A DNA stretch of 24,000 nucleotides. Origin: Bacillota bacterium (GTDB lineage Bacteria > Bacillota > Clostridia > Acetivibrionales > DSM-1351). The stretch spans positions 1 through 24,000 of the forward strand of contig JAEZRV010000048.1 of assembly GCA_023444055.1 (NCBI GenBank), read 5' to 3'. The position numbers and the translations under genes were made by a program. The notes beneath the pieces were generated by a model. The model was not told the origin of the DNA. It did no database searches and saw nothing but the letters and a program-made list of their open reading frames with translations. This document shows positions 2,376 through 10,262 of this stretch, piece by piece; position 1 is the stretch's first letter, and every line of letters begins with the position of its first letter.

Positions 2376-2625
2376 TTGATTTTAATGCGCCTTGTTCCAA
2401 AAAACGGTAATGGAAATGCTCGACTTGTATTCGATGGAAATGAAAAGTGTACAACCAATACCTACAATGAGCAAAACAAGGTAATATCATCAAGTAAATC
2501 AGCATCAGGTATAACACACGAAACCACATACAACTATGATGCTAATGGAAACCAAATAACAGCAACCGATTGGCTTGGAAATACAACCACAGCAATGTAC
2601 AGGAAAAATCCTATGACGCATTATA
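2376..2625 (+). pseudogene. Displaced YD-repeat fragment, out of frame with the downstream rhs-CT module
   Basis: Translation contains YD repeats (TTYNYDANGNQITATDWLGNTTT). It has no SD and only a TTG. The frame differs from 2626-4275, which has a stop at 2614-2616 just upstream. It is not colinear with the main gene: the segment YNGEGYRVSK...ARNVYGSNL is missing. Confidence 0.7.
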
Positions 2626-2988
2626 ATGAGAGAAGCAATCAGGACAGACGGCTCAAACATATCTGACACCTACTTCTATCTGTACAACGGACATGCAGAC
2701 GTAACGGCACTGCTAAAACCAGATGGAAATATAGTTGCAACCTACTATTATGATGCTTTTGGAAACATAACCGCAACAGGCAGTGCCAACAACAACATCA
2801 CCTTTGCAGGCTACCAGTACGATGCTGAAACAGGTTTATACTACTTGAACGCAAGAATGTACGACCCAAAGACAGCAAGATTTTTGCAGGAAGATACGTA
2901 TTTAGGCGATAGGAATGATTCGCTGAGTTTGAATTTGTATACGTATTGCCTGAACAACCCATTAGTGTATTATGATCCTACAGGACAC
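2626..2988 (+). repeat. Copy 2 of 363-nt Rhs core-end homology block
   Basis: Direct repeat of 311-673, offset 2315 nt. Confidence 0.9.
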
Positions 2989-4275
2989 AATGTTGTAAGT
3001 GATGATGAAGCGATGGAAATAACCGAAAAAATAAAAGCACATAATAGGAAAAAATACACTAACTTAATAGACAAGCATGAAGATTTATTTGAGATATTTG
3101 ACGAATATACTGCTGACTATAAAAGTACCGAAGAATATGCGGAATACATGGATATGAAATCTGTTTCTGGTACTCTGTCTTCAATAAAGAGTGAAATTGC
3201 TTCAAAAGGATTTATAAGTTCAGATGATGGAATGAAACTACATCAAGGAATTTTGAGTTTTAATAACTCAGTATTTGAAGCAACGACTAGTGATAAGTAT
3301 AGAACTGCAATGAGTTTATTTACCGATAAAGTGAATTCATCGAATCCATACGATGTTATAAATAATGGTAACATAATTTCGAAGTATAATTCATTTAGCT
3401 TTATTGAACGTATGGCTGAAGGATATGATACTAATGGTGCTCTAATAAAACTTGCAAAAATAGAAGCACTATCGGGAGAAGATGAAATTACATATGCCGA
3501 TTATTATCTGATGACCACAGAGCAAACAAGAGCAGCTATGGATATGAGTACTTATAACATTGCTATGATTGCTATGGGGAAATTCTACTACGGAAATATA
3601 GGAAGTGGCAAAGGCAAAATAACTAGTAGTGATATTGAAGCCAGTCGACTTGATGCTTTGGAAGCAAGAGGCTATAATATAGTAACATTTGGAAAAAATA
3701 CAGGAGGGAATACCTCTAAATATAGACTTAATACAGGATTTAAAGGGAGGTTTACTTTAAAGGGAACGTCGACTGAGGGGGCTGGTAATCTTGGTAGGTA
3801 TGCAAAGAAACCGTTAAATCAATCAGACTTTATTGGTACACTTGATGAAAGTTTTGTTAACTTAAGTACATCAAAGAAAATAGATGCTGCTTTTGGCGAG
3901 ATAGAAAGTGCATTTGGTAAGTCCTACTCAAACAAAATTAGTGAACTTTACAATTCATCATCACAAAACTTTATTAAGTCAGCTGATGACTTGGGAGTAT
4001 TTAAACTAGACGTAAGAGGAAACCCAATTATTGAGATTAATAAGAACATTGGTAACTCTAAAGTTATGGCAAATACTATATTACACGAAGTAAGGCATTT
4101 AAGGCAGTACAATAAGCTAGGGATTAGTCCTAAAGGATGGAATGCACTCAGTGATGAGTTCGTAGAAAGGTTTGCAACATCAACAAACCTTTGGCAGGGA
4201 AAGAAAATGGGATTATCTCCAGAAGACTTAGGAATCTTCCAGAACTACTATAATGGATGGAGGGGAATTAAATGA
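2626..4275 (+). CDS. Orphan Rhs C-terminal module: Rhs core end plus an HExxH (putative Zn-metallopeptidase-like) toxin domain
   Basis: The first 121 codons are near-identical to 311-673 of the main gene and end in YYDPTGH (nt 2988). From 2989 the sequence is unrelated to the main gene. HEVRH lies at 4084-4098, with acidic SDEFVE about 20 aa downstream. No SD precedes the ATG at 2626. Confidence 0.8.
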   Translation: MREAIRTDGSNISDTYFYLYNGHADVTALLKPDGNIVATYYYDAFGNITATGSANNNITFAGYQYDAETGLYYLNARMYDPKTARFLQEDTYLGDRNDSLSLNLYTYCLNNPLVYYDPTGHNVVSDDEAMEITEKIKAHNRKKYTNLIDKHEDLFEIFDEYTADYKSTEEYAEYMDMKSVSGTLSSIKSEIASKGFISSDDGMKLHQGILSFNNSVFEATTSDKYRTAMSLFTDKVNSSNPYDVINNGNIISKYNSFSFIERMAEGYDTNGALIKLAKIEALSGEDEITYADYYLMTTEQTRAAMDMSTYNIAMIAMGKFYYGNIGSGKGKITSSDIEASRLDALEARGYNIVTFGKNTGGNTSKYRLNTGFKGRFTLKGTSTEGAGNLGRYAKKPLNQSDFIGTLDESFVNLSTSKKIDAAFGEIESAFGKSYSNKISELYNSSSQNFIKSADDLGVFKLDVRGNPIIEINKNIGNSKVMANTILHEVRHLRQYNKLGISPKGWNALSDEFVERFATSTNLWQGKKMGLSPEDLGIFQNYYNGWRGIK

Positions 4276-4652
4276 GACTAGATATTAATTTACTAAATAG
4301 TAGATATAGTTCTACAGAAAAATCAATTCCTGTTGTGATAAAACTATCATCAGATGAAGAAGTAGAGATAGCAGAGAAGATTGATTTAAGGGAGATACTC
4401 CTTCTACAAGGGGAGGATGCTAAGGCTGGAACATATACTTCATGCCGATTAGGCTTACCCAGAGATACCTTTATAGTATCAAAGCAAAAACCACATTACA
4501 TTGTCTATGACGTTTATGAAGATTGCAGGGACATAGATATTGAACCAGGGGAGTATGATATTTCTATAAAACTCAAGGCCTTTGTGAAAGTAGATGAGGA
4601 TAATTTTGAGACAATTGAGCTAGGCGGAAAAAAAGCTATTACAATTGAATAG
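4272..4652 (+). CDS. Putative cognate immunity protein of the HExxH rhs-CT (126 aa, no recognised family)
   Basis: ATGA start/stop overlap with the toxin ORF (4272-4275), implying translational coupling. Size and position are typical of immunity genes. Confidence 0.6.
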   Translation: MRLDINLLNSRYSSTEKSIPVVIKLSSDEEVEIAEKIDLREILLLQGEDAKAGTYTSCRLGLPRDTFIVSKQKPHYIVYDVYEDCRDIDIEPGEYDISIKLKAFVKVDEDNFETIELGGKKAITIE

Positions 4653-4893
4653 AAATATTCCACTATACGCTACAACAATTTACCCCTGTTGAGATAACAA
4701 AGCCAAGTATTTTTCATGCTGATAACGTTGATATTGTATGATAACAAACTAAATGAATCCCGCCTACCTTTAAAAGAGGGCGGCGGAGGCAACCAACTTT
4801 AAAATCAAGTCCTATTAAAGAGAGAATAGAGTACATATATACTACTACTCCCTTAGTAGGACTTTCTTTTTTGATAGTGATTGATAGAGACCA

Positions 4894-4930
4894 AGCCCCG
4901 CCGCCGATTTCAATTGTAGGTGGCGGGGCT
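4894..4930 (+). terminator. Strong GC-rich stem-loop: possible terminator or structured-RNA/DNA element
   Basis: AGCCCCGCCGCC (4894-4905) pairs with GGTGGCGGGGCT (4919-4930): 12 bp including one G.U, with a 13-nt loop. The downstream sequence is only moderately U-rich (TCGTCTGTGATTGTTGTT). Confidence 0.4.
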
Positions 4931-5176
4931 TCGTCTGTGATTGTTGTTAAACACTCTCTAATACTAACCACTTGATAGTAATATAAGTGACATAGAATTG
5001 AATTATATGTCTATGGTAATAAAGGTGTATTGCCCCCCACCGAAGGGCGGGATTTGGTTAAAATAAGCGAATTGTAGTGTAAGGAAAATACATAAAATCT
5101 ACTGGTGTAACCTATGAAAAAGTAAATCCGCAACAGTAAATATATCTTAATATCTATACATAAATTCAGCCTTGTT

Positions 5177-5272
5177 GTCTAAAATTTAGGATTCAGAATA
5201 TAATTTCTGTGTCCTAAAAATTAGAACTCTGCGTCCTAAAATTTAGAACCCTGTGTCCTAAAATTTAGGCAC
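5177..5272. repeat. Array of four palindromic repeats, consensus CTGYGTCCTAAAATTTAGRAC; three are in tandem with a 22-bp period
   Basis: Copies start at 5177 (GTCTAAAATTTAGGA), 5211, 5233 and 5255. The core CCTAAA-N-TTTAGG is an inverted repeat. The last copy extends to the 20-bp near-palindrome GTGTCCTAAAATTTAGGCAC (5253-5272). Confidence 0.85.
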
Positions 5273-5352
5273 GAATAAATACAAGAGAATAACTACAAGA
5301 AGAACAAAGACAAGATTACCGTTTTCGCTCCGCTCAACGGACACTTGAAGGG

Positions 5353-5381
5353 TTGAAATATTGATTCTTTGGCTCTATAAC
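5353..5381 (+). promoter_or_regulatory. Candidate sigma-A type promoter TTGAAA-17 nt-TATAAC
   Basis: The -35 is at 5353-5358 and the -10 at 5376-5381. It would produce a leader of about 280 nt ahead of the recombinase start at 5661. This is sequence match only. Confidence 0.3.
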
Positions 5382-5660
5382 GCTACGACAGTCTCAAATA
5401 ATTTCTCGCAGATAATATGTATCTACCTGAGACCGCCCCGCCTAACCGCCTTTTTCAAGGCACTGGGCGGGGTGCTTTCATTTAAAAATACTATCAAAAT
5501 AATCAATATAGTTACCTCTGTAATAACCAATATCCTGTTGAAATACTTTCTGAAAAGGTCTATAACCTTGTTTACAAGTTCATTTAGTAAACAGATTAAC
5601 CCGCCCCACTTGGGCGGCGTTACGAAAACTCAAATTATCGTTACAGGAGGTGAAAAAGCA

Positions 5661-6440
5661 ATGGATAAAGCAGTTGGATATGTTCGTGTAAGTACTATGG
5701 GGCAAGTTAAAGACGGTTATTCTCTTTCCTATCAGACCGAGGAAATACAAAAGTATGTCGCCACCCACAACCTTGATTTAATAGGTATCTATGAAGACAA
5801 AGGGATAAGCGGGGCGAAGGTTGATGAAGATGATTTAACTATAGCAAGAGAAGGACTACAGGAAATGCTATCAGCGGTAAGGTGGCAGGAAGCAAAGTAT
5901 GTAATTGTACTTAATACCTCCCGCCTTTGGCGTTCAGATTTAGTTAAAGTACTTATTCATAGGGAACTAAAGCGGAATAACGCTGAAATACGGTCTATAG
6001 AGCAATCTAACTACAGCATTTATACTAAAGACCCCACTGACATATTAGTAAACGGTATGCTTGAACTTCTAGACCAGTATCAACGACTAGAAATAGCTTT
6101 AAAACTTGGTAGGGGCAGAAAGAAGAAAGCCCAACAAGGCGGTTATGCAGGTGGGCGGGTTGCCTTTGGATACTCTGCTAAGAAGTCACAGAAGGCTTTA
6201 GAAGTAAATGAAGAACAGGCTAACACTGTAAGGAGGGTGTTTGAAATCAAACAGAGGAATCCCGCCCTCTCACTATCACAGATAGCTTCTATAATCAATC
6301 TAGAAGGCTTTAAAACTACACAAGATAAAGAGTTTACCAAGGTTCAAATCAAGCGTATTCTTGACCGTAAAGACTTCTATAGTGGTATCTATCACTACGG
6401 ACAAATAGAAGCCAAAGGGGAGCATATTGCAATTATCTAA
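5661..6440 (+). CDS. Serine recombinase (resolvase catalytic domain plus recombinase domain), short 259-aa form lacking zinc-ribbon/coiled-coil domains
   Basis: AGGAGG at 5645-5650 lies 10 nt upstream of the ATG at 5661. N-terminus MDKAVGYVRVSTMGQ carries the catalytic Ser motif; DKGISG and SRLWRS are present. GGRVAFGYS and GEHIAII match the large-serine-recombinase recombinase domain, but the ORF stops right after the HxAII motif. The in-frame extension back to 5361 has no protein-like character. Confidence 0.85.
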   Translation: MDKAVGYVRVSTMGQVKDGYSLSYQTEEIQKYVATHNLDLIGIYEDKGISGAKVDEDDLTIAREGLQEMLSAVRWQEAKYVIVLNTSRLWRSDLVKVLIHRELKRNNAEIRSIEQSNYSIYTKDPTDILVNGMLELLDQYQRLEIALKLGRGRKKKAQQGGYAGGRVAFGYSAKKSQKALEVNEEQANTVRRVFEIKQRNPALSLSQIASIINLEGFKTTQDKEFTKVQIKRILDRKDFYSGIYHYGQIEAKGEHIAII

Positions 6441-6464
6441 AATGCAATAACAGGAGGTTTTAAC

Positions 6465-6656
6465 ATGCAAGTAAGACTATTGACAGTATACAGCACAACA
6501 GTAAATAATTCCGAAGTGCCGCAAATACGAATACAGGGAAAATGGCTTGAAAGGCTGGGATTCAAGCCTAATGTGAAAATAATCGTTGAAGAAAAATATG
6601 GACAGCTATTGCTCAGAATAGTACAAATCTGTGAAGTAGGGAGAGAAGGAACATAA
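6465..6656 (+). CDS. SymE-like / AbrB-fold (SpoVT-AbrB) small protein, 63 aa
   Basis: AGGAGG at 6452-6457 precedes the ATG. VPQIRIQGKWLERLGFKPNVKIIVEEKYGQLLLRIV matches the SymE_toxin / AbrB-like pattern (P-x-hRLxGKWLxxxGF....v.v....g.L.I). Confidence 0.7.
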   Translation: MQVRLLTVYSTTVNNSEVPQIRIQGKWLERLGFKPNVKIIVEEKYGQLLLRIVQICEVGREGT

Positions 6657-6658
6657 AT

Positions 6659-6840
6659 AACAGGTATTACGCTCTTGAAATTTCCGCAATTCATATGTCA
6701 ATACGTATAAGTTGTTAGAGGTACTTACATACAAGTAAAGAATGGATATGCTTTTAGTCCCCTTGCGGGTCTCTTTAAGAGACTAACGCTCAATAGCTGA
6801 GGTTGCAACTATTCTTTACAGGATTAGAAAGGGTGGTCTT
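6659..6840 (+). ncRNA. Candidate IS110 bridge (guide) RNA in the non-coding left end
   Basis: The position matches the bridge RNA of IS110-subgroup elements. Short stems are visible, e.g. GTCTC-TTTAA-GAGAC (6769-6783) and TACTT-ACATAC-AAGTA (6722-6737). The structure was not verified. Confidence 0.4.
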
Positions 6841-8076
6841 ATGAACCATTATAAACTCAATTACTCCTATGTCGGTGTTGATACCCACAAGGAGTTCCAT
6901 GTTGCTGTAGTTATTAACTTCTTCAATGAAAAACTGGGGGAAGTTAAGTTTGATAACAAGCCCGCCACCTTTGGTGCAATGCTTGGTAAAGTTAAAAAGT
7001 TAAGCGGAGAATTAACTCCTGTATTCGCTCTTGAAGATGTGGGCGGCTATGGAAGGAGTTTAGCTGTATACCTTACGGAGAAGAAGGAAACTGTTAAGGC
7101 TGTTAATCCTGCTCTTGCTAATGACAGAAGAAAGAGTACGCCAACCTATAAGAAGGATGATAGCTTTGACGCTCTAACGGTAGCAAAGGTCTTGAAAGAA
7201 GACTTTGACGAACTTCCTACAGCTAATCCAACGGATATTTACTGGGCGTTAGCCCAATTGGTAGGACGGCGGGATTCACTTGTAAAGAATACCGTCATCA
7301 TACAGAACCAATTACACGATATGTTGAAACATCACTATCCTTCATATAGGAAGTTCTTTACAGAGATAGATTCACAGACAGCCTTAGCATTTTGGGAAGA
7401 ATATCCCGCCCCACATTGCTTGGAAGGTGTTACTCTAGAACAGTTTACGGTATTCTTGAATAAAGCAAGTCATAATATATGTTCTACAAAGAAGGCACAG
7501 GCGATTTTAGAACTGGTGGCGGCTGATGGTAATACTCAACGAGAATATCAAGCTACAAGAGATACTATAGTAAAGAGTATAGTTAAACAGATTAAGTTCA
7601 ACAAGCAGGAGATAGCAGATACAGAGAAGGAAATGGTAGCTATACTGGCTGAAATGGGTTACAAACTTGAATCTATGCCTGGGATTAGTACCGTTACCGC
7701 CGCCAACCTTATAGCAGAGATAGGGGACATTAAAAGATTTCCTAATGCTGATAAGTTAGCGAGATTTGCTTCTATTGCTCCTGTAAAATATAGTTCGGCG
7801 GGGAAGGGAAATGACCAGAAGGCTAAACAAGGTAACAGAACATTACACGGTATATTCTACTTTCTAGCAGTACAACAGGTACAGACACATCCTAAGACAA
7901 AGAAACCACGAAATCAAGCCTTCTATGACTACTATCAGAAGAAGCAGAAGGAAGGTAAATCAAAGCCACAGGCTCTAACATGTGTAATGAGAAGGTTATG
8001 CACTATCATATATAGCATGATGAAGTACAAGACAGAATATGTTATGCCTGTTATTCCCAATGAGGAAGCAGTATGA
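6841..8076 (+). CDS. IS110-family transposase/recombinase (DEDD N-terminal domain plus Transposase_20 C-terminal domain)
   Basis: YVGVDTHKEFHVAVV is the N-terminal DEDD motif. MPGISTVTAANLIAEIGDIKRFPNADKLARFASIAPVKYSSAGKG is the typical C-terminal helix-hairpin-helix/Ser region. SD GAAAGGGTGG lies upstream. Confidence 0.92.
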   Translation: MNHYKLNYSYVGVDTHKEFHVAVVINFFNEKLGEVKFDNKPATFGAMLGKVKKLSGELTPVFALEDVGGYGRSLAVYLTEKKETVKAVNPALANDRRKSTPTYKKDDSFDALTVAKVLKEDFDELPTANPTDIYWALAQLVGRRDSLVKNTVIIQNQLHDMLKHHYPSYRKFFTEIDSQTALAFWEEYPAPHCLEGVTLEQFTVFLNKASHNICSTKKAQAILELVAADGNTQREYQATRDTIVKSIVKQIKFNKQEIADTEKEMVAILAEMGYKLESMPGISTVTAANLIAEIGDIKRFPNADKLARFASIAPVKYSSAGKGNDQKAKQGNRTLHGIFYFLAVQQVQTHPKTKKPRNQAFYDYYQKKQKEGKSKPQALTCVMRRLCTIIYSMMKYKTEYVMPVIPNEEAV

Positions 8077-8092
8077 TAGAATAAAATTGTCC

Positions 8093-8153
8093 TCTGTATT
8101 GATAATGCCCCATGGTGGGGCAATTATTTTAGGTGGAGTATTTTCAATGCAGA
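8093..8153 (+). repeat. Leader module copy 1 (hairpin, T-tract, SD, ATG)
   Basis: TCTGTATTGATAATGCCCCATGGTGGGGCAATTATTTTAGGTGGAGTATTTTCAATGCAGA. Hairpin GCCCCA/TGGGGC at 8107-8121, SD-like GGTGGAG at 8132-8138, ATG at 8147. It is a direct repeat of 8614-8674, offset 521 nt. Confidence 0.85.
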
Positions 8154-8215
8154 TGGAATATGCGAATCTATATAATATAGCACAAGAGAAATTTAACGAA
8201 ATTAGGATGTGTTAA
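8147..8215 (+). CDS. Possible 22-codon leader uORF (MQMEYANLYNIAQEKFNEIRMC) from the conserved SD/ATG
   Basis: The conserved GGTGGAG lies 8 nt upstream. The TAA stop (8213-8215) is 1 nt before the ATG at 8217. Translation is untested. Confidence 0.25.
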   Translation: MQMEYANLYNIAQEKFNEIRMC

Positions 8216-8216
8216 A

Positions 8217-8612
8217 ATGCTTGATTGGACTGAAAGTACAACGATTAAGATCATTGCATTATATAAATACAAAGGTATTGAGTTTGATACTATCTTTACT
8301 ACAATTTTTAATATAATTAAGAAAGGGATTGGTGTAGACCCTGTGCAGTGGATTGAAGAGATGAGGAAAAATAGAATAAAGGGATTAAATGCCGCACAAA
8401 AAGCGGCTTTCAACAGTTTGCCTTTACTGTTTTGGATTTGTGAAGAAAATAAATTAAAATCTTCCTTTAATCAAGCACTAGACCATGTATTAATAACTGA
8501 AGGAATAGATATTGCTAGTGTACAGATGGATTTGTACTATGAATATTTGAATCCAAGTGATGAAATGAAAAAAGAGAAGTATTTGGCACAAGGGTATAAA
8601 AGAAAAAGATAA
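8217..8612 (+). CDS. Hypothetical protein, 131 aa, no family recognised
   Basis: Clean ORF with a weak AGGA 9 nt upstream. It is followed directly by leader module copy 2. Confidence 0.55.
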   Translation: MLDWTESTTIKIIALYKYKGIEFDTIFTTIFNIIKKGIGVDPVQWIEEMRKNRIKGLNAAQKAAFNSLPLLFWICEENKLKSSFNQALDHVLITEGIDIASVQMDLYYEYLNPSDEMKKEKYLAQGYKRKR

Positions 8613-8613
8613 A

Positions 8614-8674
8614 TCTGTATTGAAAATGCCCCACAGTGGGGCTTATATTTTGGGTGGAGTATTTTCAATGCAGA
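8614..8674 (+). repeat. Leader module copy 2 (hairpin, T-tract, SD, ATG)
   Basis: TCTGTATTGAAAATGCCCCACAGTGGGGCTTATATTTTGGGTGGAGTATTTTCAATGCAGA. Hairpin at 8628-8642, SD at 8653-8659, ATG at 8668. Differences from copy 1 fall in the hairpin loop and the T-tract, while the stem and a 22-nt SD-ATG block are identical. Confidence 0.85.
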
Positions 8675-8700
8675 GGGGACTAGTAGGCTTGAATACTTGA
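8668..8700 (+). CDS. Possible 10-codon leader uORF (MQRGLVGLNT) from the conserved SD/ATG
   Basis: Its stop TGA (8698-8700) overlaps the TTG (8697-8699) that opens the deaminase ORF, in a TTGA arrangement. Confidence 0.25.
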   Translation: MQRGLVGLNT

Positions 8701-9185
8701 GAGGTAAATATGGAACCCTAACTCCTAATGAGATTAACCAACGTATTAATTTAAGAGGGGCTGTAGCTGACGAGTATGCTAGATTGAAAGCTCAAGGATT
8801 AAGTAAAAATGATATGGGTCCAGCACTCGCAGGTGTTTTCGACAAAAAGACAGGACAGTATTTCTTTGGTTTGAATGCAAGAGGTCCTGAGATTCCAAGT
8901 AACCTTTCAACTGAAATGGCTACAAGATTTAATGATATGCCAGTTGATGTTATAAACAGTTATGTTAAGACTAAAGGGGCAGGCTCACATGCTGAAATAT
9001 ATGCATTAAATGAAGCATGGTTAGCACGTCCTGGCGCAGCTCCATCTGACTTCATGATGTATGTAATAAATGCAGGTGGTAAAGCACCTACAAGGGGAAT
9101 GCTTATTCCACGTTGCCCACATTGTGAATATTTAACAAGTGGAGTAAAATATATACCTGAGGTGATGAAGTATGGCAAAAAATAA
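8697..9185 (+). CDS. Nucleic-acid deaminase toxin domain protein (CDA fold, YwqJ-like); start uncertain
   Basis: GSHAEIYALNEAW (H-A-E zinc/catalytic motif) and IPRCPHCEYL (PCxxC) are present. The frame is open back to 8613 but has no in-frame ATG, only the TTG at 8697 without a clear SD. A YwqK-like gene overlaps its end. Confidence 0.8.
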   Translation: MRGKYGTLTPNEINQRINLRGAVADEYARLKAQGLSKNDMGPALAGVFDKKTGQYFFGLNARGPEIPSNLSTEMATRFNDMPVDVINSYVKTKGAGSHAEIYALNEAWLARPGAAPSDFMMYVINAGGKAPTRGMLIPRCPHCEYLTSGVKYIPEVMKYGKK

Positions 9186-9591
9186 CCGTATTGAAGAAGA
9201 TATGCTAGAGTTTGATGATGATGTTAAATGTTATAATGGGGTTCCATTTACTGGTATAGGATTTGAAAAATATCCAAATGGTAATTTGAAAAGTGAAACT
9301 CCTTATGAAGATGGGTTCCAGAGTGGAACCAGTAGGGAGTGGTATTCAACAGGACAGACTATGTGTGAACTAGAGTGGAAAAAAGGTGCTAGATTCTCTA
9401 AGAGAAAGTGTTGGTATCAAAATGGCGTAGTAAAGTCAGTTTCAAATTACGAATGGGGTATAGAACTTAATTATAAGGAGTATAATGAGAAGGGTGAATT
9501 AGTTACGGATAGAGAACTCGACCCTAATTCACCTGATTCGCAGTATGCAGTTCTACTAAAGTTTAGGCAAGTCTATGGAGAGCAAGAATGA
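9172..9591 (+). CDS. YwqK-like MORN-repeat-variant immunity/antitoxin protein
   Basis: GAGGTGA SD. Overlaps the deaminase ORF by 14 nt. Repeats of the pattern G....W/Y..G....E..Y..G (YPNGNLKSETPYEDGFQSGTSREWYSTGQTMCELEWKKG...WYQNGVVKSVSNYEWG) are as in the YwqK family paired with YwqJ deaminase toxins. Confidence 0.75.
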   Translation: MAKNNRIEEDMLEFDDDVKCYNGVPFTGIGFEKYPNGNLKSETPYEDGFQSGTSREWYSTGQTMCELEWKKGARFSKRKCWYQNGVVKSVSNYEWGIELNYKEYNEKGELVTDRELDPNSPDSQYAVLLKFRQVYGEQE

Positions 9592-10262
9592 TATTTTGCT
9601 AAAGCTTTACGAACAGCTTGGTCAGCTCGGCGTGTAGTCTCTGGTAAGCGAAAGTTAGGGGATAGTTTTAAAACCCAATTACAGGCTGTTTGAAGAGAAA
9701 TGCGATGCCCTATAGAAACATAGACAGGTTTGATATTATCTTGGGTTCTCAACACATTACCAATAGTTTCTTTGTTATCAATTAGGGGCGCATAGTCGCC
9801 CCTTTTTATTCCTATTTCTGCTGTTTCACCAATTAATCTTGCTTTGCCGCAACCAATGGTAGGCACATCAAAAAGCACGCCTAAGTGACAAGATAGTCCG
9901 GCGCGTCTTGGGTGAGCAAGCCCATGCCCATCGCAGATAATAACGTCTGGAGTGATACTTAATTGCTGTAATGCTTTTGCTATGGGGGGAAGTTCTCTAA
10001 ATGAGAACAAGCCAGGGATATAGGGGAATTGAACAGTATCTTCAGCAATTTCAGTTTCAACAACTTCAAGGGAGTTTACATCTAATATTACTACTGCTGA
10101 AAATAGTTTATCACTATGCTTGTCATAAGCAACATCAACACCTCCAACATATCTAATATCATTTAACATATCTTCTTTTATAACTTTTCTGGCAATGTCT
10201 GATTGAAGAACTAAGGCTTCTTTTTCACTCAGGTTCCATGGATGTATAAAATTAGGTGTCAT
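9573..10262 (-). CDS. nfi: Endonuclease V (deoxyinosine 3' endonuclease)
   Basis: Full-length match of pattern: GGVDVAY, FPYIPGLFSFRELPP, ICDGHGLAHPRRAGLSCHLGV. SD AAGGAGA upstream on the minus strand. Confidence 0.92.
   Translation of the reverse strand: MTPNFIHPWNLSEKEALVLQSDIARKVIKEDMLNDIRYVGGVDVAYDKHSDKLFSAVVILDVNSLEVVETEIAEDTVQFPYIPGLFSFRELPPIAKALQQLSITPDVIICDGHGLAHPRRAGLSCHLGVLFDVPTIGCGKARLIGETAEIGIKRGDYAPLIDNKETIGNVLRTQDNIKPVYVSIGHRISLQTACNWVLKLSPNFRLPETTRRADQAVRKALAKYHSCSP

What the first reader, a model, noticed from the sequence alone, without database searches (positions are those of the whole stretch)
8613..9185. Deaminase toxin ORF is one nucleotide out of frame with its only good SD/ATG, across a GGGG run
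The YwqJ-like deaminase frame is open from 8613 but contains no ATG; the first candidate start is the TTG at 8697, without a clear SD. The strong SD/ATG at 8653-8670 is in the +1 register. A single extra G in the run GGGG (8675-8678) would give ATG CAG AGG GGG ACT AGT AGG CTT GAA TAC TTG..., that is MQRGTSRLEYLRGKYGTL..., a continuous deaminase of about 172 aa. Possible explanations follow. (a) A frameshift-inactivated toxin gene. (b) Expression by termination-reinitiation at the TTGA overlap. (c) Low-frequency -1 ribosomal slippage on A-GGG-GA. (d) Slipped-strand switching, which is unlikely for only four G. Any of these would keep a potentially mutagenic enzyme at very low levels. Compact stand-alone toxin deaminases are also of practical interest as base-editor scaffolds.
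Basis: seen in the sequence. Interest (0 to 1): 0.7.

Follow-up and report, generated by a model that had tools for sequence, protein, structure and literature searches.

The report
Start-less orphan deaminase toxin module
The "frameshifted" deaminase gene is the detached tip of a longer bacterial toxin. It has no start codon of its own, and the nearby ribosome-binding site and ATG belong to the end of a neighbouring IS110-type mobile element, so no G is missing.

Summary

**What the sequence shows**
- ATG 8668 lies +1 relative to a YwqJ-type deaminase frame that is open from 8613.
- GGGG is at 8675-8678.
- The first in-frame start is TTG 8697.

**Why no G is missing**
- The GGGG is simply the codons GAG-GGG (Glu-Gly).
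- The same in-frame E-G occurs where the deaminase module begins in several long toxins. One of them, in Brevibacillus, carries the identical 8-mer GAGGGGAC.
- The SD and ATG lie in a 64-nt element present twice in the window. It is the right end of an IS110-family element.
- A relative of that element (89% identical transposase) has the same end and the same G4 junction, in the same phase, in front of an unrelated ORF.
- Five independent assemblies all show G4.
- TTG 8697 is a conserved leucine codon that reads CTA or TTA in homologues.

**What it is**
This is an orphan toxin/immunity cassette: a start-less toxin tip, a YwqK-like immunity gene with a strong SD, and endonuclease V. The kind is well known.

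**More interesting side observation**
An RNA loop encoded upstream of the transposase is complementary to the G-run junction. It covaries with that junction across more than 10 related elements, which all sit in front of mostly start-less ORFs, several of them recognisable toxin tips.

The parts
8673..9185 (+). Orphan YwqJ-type deaminase toxin C-terminal module (EGTSRLEYLRGKYG...KYGKK*, 170 codons), with no start codon of its own
   Evidence: Pfam PF14431 E 5e-13. Homologues are 44-72% identical and mostly form the C-terminus of 270 to >2000-aa toxins. The AlphaFold model has pLDDT 80.5. HAE is at 8988-8996 and PRCPHC at 9108-9125.
8673..8682 (+). Module boundary GAGGGGACTA: codons E-G-T, containing the G4 run 8675-8678. 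It is also the site complementary to the IS110 LE RNA loop.
   Evidence: In-frame EG occurs at the same place in L017, L028, L035, P0002, P0003, P0006 and P0009. There is 9-nt perfect complementarity to 6755-6763, reached by 7 of 2000 shuffles.
8697..8699 (+). TTG called as the start by ORF finders; in fact the conserved Leu of the (D/E)YLR.KYG motif
   Evidence: Homologues read CTA, TTA, TTG or CTG here. The best anti-SD pairing is -5.5 kcal/mol at 17 nt, which is ordinary for TTGs in this window.
8594..8672 (+). Solo copy (copy 2) of the IS110-family right end. It contains the hairpin at 8628-8642, the SD-like GGTGGAG at 8653-8659 and ATG 8668.
   Evidence: Direct repeat 8093-8156 / 8614-8677, 88% identical. 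It is 84% identical over 102 nt to the sequence that follows the transposase stop in L038. It folds to -26.2 kcal/mol, z -3.8.
8668..8700 (+). 10-codon ORF MQRGLVGLNT* in the +1 register. It arises from the RE tail ATGCA being joined to the module.
   Evidence: Its length is not conserved at related junctions.
6841..8076 (+). IS110-family transposase (DEDD_Tnp_IS110 + Transposase_20)
   Evidence: Pfam E 9e-26 and 3e-20. More than 1000 homologues were found, some named 'IS110 family RNA-guided transposase' by NCBI.
8077..8152 (+). Right end of the intact IS110 element (copy 1 of the repeat). Here it abuts GATGGAAT, not the matching target.
   Evidence: There is no complementarity between the LE loop and the copy-1 flank.
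6736..6830 (+). Structured non-coding RNA region upstream of the transposase (bridge-RNA-like loop). The guide-like segment TAGTCCCCT is at 6755-6763. The left boundary of the element is not mapped.
   Evidence: The consensus fold of 6 elements has 10 pairs with compensatory changes. Guide and flank covary across elements. There is no Rfam match.
8217..8612 (+). ORF131, function unknown (candidate orphan immunity gene). It lies between the two RE copies, in the same frame as the deaminase module and separated from it by a single TAA.
   Evidence: No Pfam hit. One homologue was found in 1.8 billion representatives, 48% identical. That homologue lies just downstream of an HNHc_6 nuclease gene.
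9172..9591 (+). YwqK-like (MORN_2) immunity gene with its own strong SD (GAGGTGA). It overlaps the toxin's 3' end by 14 nt.
   Evidence: Pfam PF07661 E 1.6e-9. SD -13.0 kcal/mol. Homologues lie downstream of the deaminase in all 29 genome loci.
9573..10262 (-). Endonuclease V, convergent with the immunity gene and overlapping it by 19 nt. Probable third member of the cassette.
   Evidence: Pfam PF04493 E 2.8e-74. EndoV lies next to the deaminase-immunity pair in 22 of 29 genome loci. B. subtilis ywqJKL is described in preprint PMC13648612.

Best explanation
Bases 8673-9185 are an orphan C-terminal toxin module of the YwqJ deaminase family. It is the enzymatic tip of a long secreted polymorphic toxin, detached from its N-terminal delivery region. 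It lies at the far end of an Rhs toxin island, followed by its cognate immunity gene and an endonuclease V gene.

The module begins at the motif E-G (GAG GGG). This motif marks the start of the module in full-length homologues, so the G4 run is ordinary coding sequence in its original phase.

Immediately upstream is a solo copy of the right end of an IS110-family element. The SD-like GGTGGAG and the ATG belong to that end. The end finishes with ATGCA, so the ATG falls +1 to the module wherever this end meets a module in codon phase.

The module has no start codon of its own, because TTG 8697 is a conserved leucine codon. It is therefore most likely not translated, or only at trace level. The immunity gene has a strong SD and ATG, and together with EndoV it is the expressed, selectable part, protecting against YwqJ-type toxins from neighbours.

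Shown here: homology and truncation, the IS origin of the SD and ATG, and G4 as the ancestral state.

Inferred: silence of the toxin, expression of the immunity gene, and ssDNA cytidine deaminase activity with lesion-directed protection by EndoV (by analogy with B. subtilis).
For: **1. The deaminase is normally the tip of a long toxin.**
- It is the C-terminal domain of long ORFs in at least 17 of 29 genome loci.
- Conservation extends upstream of TTG 8697: SRLEYLRGKYG matches SR(L/I)(D/E)(Y/E)LR.KYG.

**2. G4 is in-frame coding sequence.**
- In-frame GAG GGG occurs at the module start in uninterrupted toxins (L017 GAG GGG ACG, L028, L035) and in P0002, P0003, P0006 and P0009.

**3. The SD and ATG belong to the IS end.**
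- The 64-nt repeat containing them follows the IS110 transposase stop in the window (copy 1).
- It does the same in L038 (transposase 89% identical) and L039 (67%).
- In L038 the same ...ATGCAGAGGGGACTAG junction precedes an unrelated 158-codon ORF in the GAG-GGG phase.

**4. The transposase-upstream loop matches four G.**
- TAGTCCCCT has four C, complementary to AGGGGACTA.
- Relatives have CCCCC opposite GGGGG and CTCCC opposite GGGAG.

**5. The sequence is reproducible.**
- G4 is identical in L001-L003 and L037.

**6. Start-less modules are the rule at these junctions.**
- 11 of 15 related IS/ORF junctions have no in-frame start near the module start.
- The L066 Tox-SHH module has none in 142 codons.
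- Other deaminase orphans are truncated at other points: L004, L048 and L011.

**7. The immunity gene looks expressed.**
- Its SD scores -13.0 kcal/mol, against -7.1 for ATG 8668 and -5.5 for TTG 8697.
- The ATG and SD of the repeat lie in a hairpin of z -3.8.

**8. The pattern is published.**
- Poole et al. 2011 describe orphan CT fragments that lack initiation signals but keep the demarcating motif, followed by immunity genes with their own SD and start (PMC3150448).
Against: - The 190-codon frame is intact in a 34% GC genome; the chance of staying open at random is about 9e-8. The catalytic residues are also intact. The module is therefore either recently detached or under selection, which leaves room for some expression.
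- The cassette shares no homology with the resident rhs genes, so the usual 'reservoir for recombination' rationale does not obviously apply here.
- The E-G alignment relies on a linker of variable length. MAFFT did not place the window's EG under the homologues' EG.
- No uninterrupted allele of this exact toxin was found.
- There are no expression data.
Confidence: 0.8

Rival explanations
1. A stand-alone deaminase toxin gene (ATG 8668, 172 aa) was inactivated by loss of one G from an ancestral G5 run.
For: One extra G gives a continuous ORF with an SD/ATG. Short stand-alone-looking homologues with an ATG just upstream of the motif exist: P0005 (MKGISNPELSR...) and P0002. A true 1-nt frameshift does exist in a homologue, L032 (AAT AAA TAT reads AAT AAT AT).
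Against: GAG GGG is in phase with the E-G motif of full-length toxins, and L017 has the identical GAGGGGAC. The ATG and SD are part of an IS right-end repeat that is also found before unrelated sequences. L038 has the same G4 and the same +1 offset before a different ORF. The complementary loop has C4.
Confidence: 0.03
2. The arrangement is a recoding or coupling device giving trace expression. Either translation reinitiates at TTG 8697 after the 10-codon uORF terminates (TTGA overlap), or a -1 slip on G-GGA moves ribosomes from the uORF into the deaminase frame.
For: The uORF stop overlaps TTG 8697. tRNA-Gly could re-pair from GGA to GGG (own reasoning). The toxin ORF is intact. Orphan Rhs toxins can be expressed internally (PMC7043789). 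L038 also has a 10-codon uORF.
Against: The site is not an X XXY YYZ heptamer. The 61 nt downstream fold worse than shuffles (z +1.56), and 8650-8730 has z +0.9. The SD and ATG are sequestered in a strong hairpin. The uORF has 4 codons in L039 and 22 at copy 1, and there is no ATG at all in L005, L040 and L046. TTG is a Leu codon that varies synonymously. The similarity of L038 is shared ancestry of the same IS end, not independent conservation.
Confidence: 0.07
3. The RE/(E/K)-G junction is a working recombination site. The IS110-type recombinase, guided by its upstream RNA loop, integrates at or recombines between the first codons of toxin C-terminal modules. This would displace or exchange toxin tips and create the start-less orphans.
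For: Guide and junction covary in more than 10 elements. The junction always reads (E/K)-G-x and opens ORFs of 100-380 aa, each different, including YwqJ, Tox-SHH and DUF637+CT. L040 and L044 are 100% identical through the transposase stop, and then carry a different RE and different downstream ORF. The window has two RE copies in front of two different cassettes.
Against: No N-terminal toxin ORF runs into the left end in any of 15 loci. No second copy of the site was found upstream. Only one RNA loop was identified, and the element's left boundary is unmapped. Simple site-specific parasitism of a conserved sequence followed by rearrangement explains most of the data. Most downstream ORFs have no recognised toxin domain.
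Confidence: 0.12
4. Sequencing or assembly error in the homopolymer.
For: Homopolymers are error-prone on some platforms (general knowledge).
Against: Five assemblies from different samples are identical over the region. G4 is short. G4 is the in-phase state in homologues.
Confidence: 0.01

Closest known systems
Orphan toxin-CT/immunity modules of CDI and Rhs loci (Poole et al. 2011, PMC3150448; Koskiniemi et al. 2014, PMC3967940)
   Same: It is a C-terminal toxin fragment without translation initiation signals. It begins at the motif that demarcates the CT in full-length toxins, is followed by an immunity gene with its own SD and start, and sits downstream of a full-length toxin locus.
   Different: The module is not an rhs fragment and has no homology to the resident rhs core; the 300-nt repeat D1 belongs only to the other orphan at 2623-2922. 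The demarcating motif is (E/K)-G rather than VENN or PxxxxDPxGL. The module abuts an IS110 right end.
Bacillus subtilis ywqJ-ywqK-ywqL (LXG deaminase toxin, immunity protein, EndoV; preprint PMC13648612, Sept 2026)
   Same: It has the same three gene families in the same order: PF14431 deaminase, MORN_2 immunity and Endonuclease_5. The toxin domain is about 50% identical to the Bacillus-type loci L019 and L021.
   Different: Here the toxin lacks the LXG/PT-TG delivery part and a start codon. EndoV is convergent and overlapping rather than co-oriented. It belongs to a class that is 59-65% identical across Paenibacillus, Brevibacillus, Aneurinibacillus, Chitinimonas and Ketobacteraceae, but only about 30-37% identical to the co-oriented class. 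Its activities are untested.
IS110/IS621 bridge-RNA-guided recombinases (Durrant et al. 2024; Hiraizumi et al. 2024; Siddiquee et al. 2024 - cited from my own knowledge)
   Same: It has a DEDD transposase with a structured RNA encoded upstream. An internal-loop segment of that RNA is complementary to the DNA flanking the element and covaries with it.
   Different: Only one binding loop was recognised here. There is no Rfam match. The ends are not mapped. The flank recognised is the first codons of toxin C-terminal modules, a target class I did not find reported.
   Same: There are two overlapping frames across a short G run, with an SD-like sequence nearby.
   Different: There is no slippery heptamer, no stimulatory structure, no conservation of the arrangement and no tract-length variation.

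Membership tests
YwqJ-like deaminase toxin domain (PF14431) | Profile match above the curated cut-off | tested here: met
   49.8 bits against a cut-off of 25.9, E 5e-13, covering profile positions 3-134 of 138.
YwqJ-like deaminase toxin domain (PF14431) | Zinc/catalytic motifs H-A-E and P-C-x-x-C intact | tested here: met
   HAE at 8988-8996 and PRCPHC at 9108-9125; these columns are invariant among 13-15 homologues.
YwqJ-like deaminase toxin domain (PF14431) | Deaminase (CDA-like) fold | tested here: inconclusive
   The model has pLDDT 80.5. The top Foldseek PDB hits are blasticidin-S, cytidine and tRNA deaminases, but E is at least 0.2 and TM is 0.3-0.5.
YwqJ-like deaminase toxin domain (PF14431) | ssDNA cytidine deaminase activity and toxicity neutralised by the downstream protein | not testable with these tools
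   Known only for B. subtilis YwqJ.
Full-length polymorphic toxin (LXG, Rhs, CdiA-like) | N-terminal trafficking or delivery domain fused upstream of the toxin domain | tested here: not met
   Homology ends at 8673. Upstream is IS right-end sequence and the TAA of ORF131.
Orphan toxin-CT/immunity cassette | CT-only fragment lacking translation initiation signals | tested here: met
   There is no in-frame ATG before 8814. TTG 8697 is a conserved Leu codon with an ordinary SD score.
Orphan toxin-CT/immunity cassette | Starts at the motif that demarcates the CT in full-length relatives | tested here: met
   E-G at 8673-8678 corresponds to EG in L017, L028, L035, P0002, P0003, P0006 and P0009. The linker length varies, so the alignment is not unique.
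Orphan toxin-CT/immunity cassette | Followed by a cognate immunity gene with its own SD and start | tested here: met
   MORN_2 protein at 9172-9591 with SD -13.0 kcal/mol. Homologues follow the deaminase in all 29 genome loci.
Orphan toxin-CT/immunity cassette | Lies downstream of a full-length toxin locus | tested here: met
   The rhs 3' end with Tox-GHH and a SUKH immunity gene is at 128-2298, and a classical rhs orphan is at 2376-4652.
Orphan toxin-CT/immunity cassette | Retains a stretch homologous to the resident full-length toxin (substrate for reactivating recombination; typical but not defining) | tested here: not met
   No repeat links 8600-9600 to the rhs genes.
Programmed -1 ribosomal frameshift site | Slippery heptamer X XXY YYZ plus a stimulatory structure, conserved among relatives | tested here: not met
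   The sequence is C AGA GGG GAC. The downstream fold has z +1.56. The arrangement is absent or different at related junctions.
Slipped-strand (phase-variable) homopolymer | Tract-length polymorphism among isolates | tested here: not met
   G4 in the window, L001, L002, L003 and L037.
IS110-family insertion sequence | DEDD_Tnp_IS110 plus Transposase_20 domains | tested here: met
   the homologues are named IS110 family.
IS110-family insertion sequence | Bridge/seek RNA with a target-binding loop and a donor-binding loop | tested here: inconclusive
   One structured loop with a covarying guide-like segment was found. No second loop was identified, and there is no Rfam hit.
IS110-family insertion sequence | Defined ends shown by comparison with an empty site or with several insertion sites | tested here: inconclusive
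   The right end is defined by copy 1 versus copy 2 versus L038. The left end is not mapped. No empty site was found, and the element is single-context in this organism.

The most novel reading that the evidence does not exclude
A clade of IS110-family recombinases may be directed by their upstream-encoded RNA loop to the first codons ((E/K)-G-x) of polymorphic-toxin C-terminal modules. Integration or recombination at that site could be a mechanism, not merely a parasite, that displaces and exchanges toxin tips and leaves behind arrays of intact but start-less toxin/immunity cassettes. The window's deaminase module would be one of these. The weaker claim, RNA-guided targeting of the module boundary alone, I put at about 0.6. 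The stronger claim, functional cassette shuffling, is scored here.
Probability: 0.15. Interest if true: 0.8.

Novelty: new member of a known kind. Interest (0 to 1): 0.35.

Why it matters
**For the finding itself**
It matters little. It removes a false lead: there is no frameshift and no recoding, and no G needs repairing. It also shows that the 162-aa "gene" in public annotations (P0001) is an ORF-caller artefact. The true unit is a 170-codon toxin tip that must be given a start codon to be expressed. This is useful for anyone wanting to test it as a compact deaminase. By homology to B. subtilis YwqJ it is probably an ssDNA cytidine deaminase.

**Two side results**
- The deaminase / immunity / endonuclease V trio, recently shown to be functional in B. 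subtilis, is conserved across Firmicutes and some Proteobacteria, in two orientation classes.
- IS110-type RNA-guided recombinases repeatedly sit exactly at the 5' boundary of toxin C-terminal modules, with guide and site covarying. If these recombinases take part in toxin-tip exchange, the long-standing question of how polymorphic toxin loci acquire and array new tips becomes experimentally tractable.

Tried and rejected
- **Rfam:** a permissive scan (E up to 1) of 4600-9800 gave no match, so the upstream RNA is not a curated family.
- **Exact-pattern scan:** searching JGI metagenomes for the RE tail GGTGGAGTATTTTCAATGCAG gave nothing.
- **Contig look-up for P0005:** this C. sporogenes stand-alone-looking homologue is not on record, so I could not test whether an IS end supplies its in-frame ATG.
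- **Foldseek versus PDB:** only weak deaminase hits, not used as evidence.
- **ORF131:** the word-indexed search found only itself, and the full HMMER search found one homologue. The 22-codon ORF before it does not resemble the C-terminus of the HNHc_6 protein upstream of that homologue. The idea that it is the tail of a nuclease toxin is therefore unsupported.
- **Organism name:** no source name is attached to any exact-match protein.
- **'Cassette leader' idea:** I asked whether the 64-nt element is a generic leader preceding every cassette. No second copy exists in L011, L039, L040 or L046, so I prefer a solo IS right end.
- **Simple insertion into an intact toxin gene:** no N-terminal toxin ORF runs into the left end in 15 loci, and no second copy of the site lies upstream. 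This remains unresolved.
- **Stop-codon read-through from ORF131:** it is in the same frame with a single TAA. I rejected this because the intervening sequence is IS-derived and ORF131 has no trafficking domain.
- **RE hairpin as a second bridge-RNA loop spanning the circle junction:** the RE architecture is not conserved in L040 and L046, so I dropped it.
Full report
**1. The observation**

- ORF131 ends with TAA at 8610-8612.
- The same frame stays open from 8613 to the stop at 9183-9185 and encodes a YwqJ-like deaminase. Pfam PF14431 scores E 5e-13, and the HAE and PRCPHC motifs are intact.
- GGTGGAG lies at 8653-8659, ATG at 8668 and GGGG at 8675-8678.
- The ATG is +1 to the deaminase phase. 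It opens MQRGLVGLNT*, whose TGA overlaps TTG 8697, the first ATG/GTG/TTG in the deaminase frame.

Two details need correcting.
- In-frame ATGs do exist, from 8814 on, but they lie inside the domain.
- The SD is moderate: -7.1 kcal/mol, against -13.0 for the immunity gene.

The sequence is reproducible. Three short metagenome contigs from different samples and an 18-kb contig are identical across the region.

**2. Context**

The window (34% GC) opens inside an Rhs polymorphic-toxin island. In order it contains:
- the 3' end of an rhs gene with a Tox-GHH nuclease tip (128-1762) and a SUKH immunity gene (1783-2298);
- a classical rhs orphan that repeats 300 nt of the rhs core at 90% identity (2376-4275), with its small downstream ORF (4272-4652);
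- a serine recombinase (about 5661-6440) and a SymE-like ORF (6465-6656);
- an IS110-family transposase (6841-8076);
- ORF131 (8217-8612);
- the deaminase frame, followed by a MORN_2 / YwqK-like immunity gene (9172-9591);
- a convergent, overlapping endonuclease V gene (9573-10262, minus strand).

**3. The deaminase is the tip of a longer toxin**

Homologues are 44-72% identical. In at least 17 of 29 genome loci the domain ends an open frame with 200 to more than 2000 codons upstream of it.

Conservation does not stop at TTG 8697. The residues encoded upstream, SRLEYL, align with SR(L/I)(D/E)(Y/E)L in the homologues. The TTG is the conserved Leu of YLR.KYG and reads CTA, TTA, CTG or TTG elsewhere. 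Its best anti-SD pairing (-5.5 kcal/mol, 17 nt away) is ordinary for TTG triplets in this window. The public 162-aa protein P0001 is therefore an ORF-caller product.

**4. The G-run is in phase**

In the deaminase frame the run reads GAG GGG ACT, which is E-G-T. An E-G sits 4-9 residues before the SR.. motif in several uninterrupted toxins:
- L017 in Brevibacillus, 849 codons: GTT GAG GGG ACG, containing the same 8-mer GAGGGGAC;
- L028: ATA GAG GGG GCG;
- L035: ATT GAG GGG ATG;
- proteins P0002, P0003 (with a PT-HINT domain), P0006 and P0009.

The linker between E-G and SR.. varies in length, so this alignment is plausible rather than unique. MAFFT did not choose it.

**5. The SD and ATG belong to an IS110 right end**

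The 64 nt at 8614-8677 are an 88% identical direct repeat of 8093-8156. Copy 1 begins 17 nt after the transposase stop codon.

L038 carries a transposase 89% identical to the window's (84% at the DNA level). In L038 the same element follows the stop and ends ...GGTGGAGTATTTTCAATGCA|GAGGGGACTAGAGGTCTTGAA. It continues into a 158-codon ORF unrelated to the deaminase, open in the GAG-GGG phase. L039 (67% identical) has ...CTCAATGCA|ACGGGAGTAAGT and yet another ORF.

The window's copy 2 matches L038 from just after the stop codon through 8693. It is therefore a complete solo right end, joined to the module exactly as in L038. Because this end finishes with ATGCA, its ATG is +1 to any module joined in codon phase. 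This is geometry, not a mutation.

In two further deaminase loci with other IS110 lineages, the end abuts GAGGGGGTAAGT with no usable ATG. These are L005/L006 and L011, whose transposases are 59% and 52% identical to the window's.

Both copies of the element fold into long hairpins (-26.2 kcal/mol at z -3.8, and -22.4 at z -3.2), with the SD and ATG in stems.

**6. An independent check on four G**

The region upstream of the transposase forms a conserved stem-loop-stem, with 10 compensatory pairs among six elements. Its 5' internal-loop segment, TAGTCCCCT (6755-6763), is the exact reverse complement of AGGGGACTA (8674-8682). Only 7 of 2000 shuffles reach this match.

The segment at the same position covaries with the flank in relatives:

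| Element | Loop segment | Flank |
|---|---|---|
| L046 | CGTCCCCTT | AAGGGGACG |
| L040 | CGTCCCC | GGGGACG |
| L057 | CCGCACCCTT | AAGGGTGCGG |
| L074, L076, L082, L128 | AATCCCCCTT | AAGGGGGATT |
| L117 | CGTACCCT | AGGGTACG |
| L011 | TTGCCCCCT | AGGGGGTAA (one G:T) |
| L039 | TTGCTCCC | GGGAGTAA (one G:T) |

Four C opposite four G, and five opposite five, argue that G4 was the state of this junction when the element arrived. The flank of copy 1 (GATGGAAT) does not match the loop. Copy 2 therefore looks like the original junction, and the present order (transposase - RE1 - ORF131 - RE2 - deaminase) looks like a later rearrangement or the remnant of a second element. I could not reconstruct it.

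**7. Recoding options**
- The sequence C AGA GGG GAC is not a tandem-slippage heptamer.
- The 61 nt downstream fold worse than shuffles (z +1.56), and 8650-8730 has z +0.9.
- The uORF length is 10, 10, 4 and 22 codons at the four junctions that have this end. Other lineages have no ATG.
- In 11 of 15 related junctions there is no in-frame start codon near the module start. The Tox-SHH module of L066 has none in 142 codons.
- Other deaminase orphans are truncated at different points: L004 has a stop 14 codons before the Leu codon that corresponds to the window's TTG 8697 (itself TTG there too), and L048 keeps 24 extra codons and a fortuitous ATG.

Lack of a start is thus the norm for these modules, not a lesion peculiar to this locus.

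**8. What it is and how it works**

The best description is an orphan toxin-CT/immunity cassette. [quoted passage not shown]

I infer that the toxin tip is silent or nearly so. The immunity gene, and probably EndoV, would be the working parts, protecting against YwqJ-type toxins delivered by competitors.

By homology with B. subtilis YwqJ, the enzyme is probably an ssDNA cytidine deaminase. EndoV probably acts on the resulting lesion (preprint PMC13648612). Neither activity was tested here.

Two points weigh against complete silence.
- The frame is intact over 190 codons in an AT-rich genome; the chance of this at random is about 9e-8.
- Orphan Rhs toxins in Salmonella are expressed from internal promoters (PMC7043789).

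**9. Comparison with what is known, and novelty**

The toxin family, the immunity family, the EndoV partner and the orphan architecture are all known. This is a new member of a known kind.

It differs from classical rhs orphans in two ways: it has no homology to the resident rhs gene, and it is joined to an IS110 right end.

I found no report of IS110 elements aimed at toxin-module boundaries. One preprint notes only that IS110 and other transposases are enriched near WXG/PT-TG toxins.

**10. Open problems**
- No N-terminal toxin ORF runs into the left end of any of 15 elements, and no second site copy lies upstream. These are therefore not simple insertions into intact toxin genes within the sequence I could see. 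The recombinase might sit at one end of a much larger integrated element.
- L040 and L044 are 100% identical through the left flank and transposase up to the stop codon. They are then 86% identical for about 85 nt, and unrelated beyond that.
- The window and L039 share a resolvase directly upstream of the IS110 gene.

These observations allow a more novel reading, RNA-guided exchange of toxin tips, but they do not establish it.

Noticed in passing
window 6736-6830 (guide-like 6755-6763) and 8673-8682; L011, L038, L039, L040, L046, L057, L066, L070, L074, L076, L082, L083, L117, L128: A structured RNA loop encoded upstream of the IS110 transposase contains a segment complementary to the DNA just past the element's right end. 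The segment covaries with that DNA across more than 10 related elements. Read as codons, the site is always (E/K)-G-x, and it opens a different 100-380-codon ORF in each case. These include the YwqJ deaminase, Tox-SHH and DUF637+CT.
   Followed up: partly
L066 2806-3231; also L038, L039, L046, L074, L076, L082, L083, L128, L070, L011: The intact ORFs behind these IS110 ends mostly lack any in-frame start codon near their beginning (11 of 15). The 142-codon Tox-SHH module of L066 has no ATG, GTG or TTG at all and is followed by a SUKH-like ORF. Why such ORFs stay open is unexplained.
   Followed up: partly
window 9573-10262 (-); L008-L036: Endonuclease V lies directly next to the deaminase-immunity pair in 22 of 29 genome loci, in two classes. 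The convergent class is 59-65% identical to the window's EndoV even in Chitinimonas and Ketobacteraceae. The co-oriented class (Bacillus, Clostridium, Sporosarcina, Streptococcus) is 29-38% identical. This extends the B. subtilis-only survey of the 2026 preprint and suggests that EndoV travels with the cassette.
   Followed up: partly
L040 versus L044: Two metagenome contigs are 100% identical over 1764 nt (left flank, upstream RNA region and the whole transposase gene). They drop to about 86% identity exactly after the stop codon for about 85 nt and are unrelated beyond that. The right end and the downstream ORF seem to have been swapped as a unit.
   Followed up: partly
window 5618-6441 and 6735-8151; L039 2009-4306: A 259-aa serine recombinase sits directly upstream of the IS110 gene both here and in L039 (74% and 66% DNA identity). 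The window has a SymE-like ORF (6465-6656, PF08845) inserted between them, and L039 also has an Imm50 gene upstream. The mobile unit may be larger than a plain IS.
   Followed up: partly
window 8217-8612; L047 847-1242: ORF131 has a single homologue (48% identity) among 1.8 billion representative proteins. That homologue lies 47 nt downstream of an HNHc_6 nuclease gene, so ORF131 may be an orphan immunity or inhibitor gene. ORF131 is in the same frame as the deaminase module, separated from it by one TAA.
   Followed up: partly
window 8093-8159 and 8614-8680: Each right-end copy is an imperfect long palindrome. The outer stem pairs TCTGTATTGA with TCAATGCAGA and encloses the hairpin GCCCCAnnnTGGGGC (z -3.2 and -3.8). 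A sigma-70-like TTGAAA-N18-TATATT (8620-8649) overlaps it. Its role is unknown; it could be a terminator, an outward promoter or part of the element's RNA.
   Followed up: partly
L032 about 5990-6060 (Streptococcus panodentis): A homologous deaminase gene carries a true one-base deletion in AAT AAA TAT (it reads AATAATAT), which breaks the frame inside the conserved LRNKYG motif. This is what a real frameshift in this family looks like.
   Followed up: no
window 5206-5271: Three tandem 22-nt repeats (TCTGTGTCCTAAAAATTAGAAC) lie in the 1-kb non-coding stretch upstream of the serine recombinase. They may be a recombinase or replication-protein binding array.
   Followed up: no
window 2626-4275: The rhs orphan's C-terminal tip has an HEVRH motif and a weak DUF6782 metallopeptidase match (E 0.04). 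It may be an uncharacterised metallopeptidase toxin. Its putative immunity ORF is at 4272-4652.
   Followed up: no
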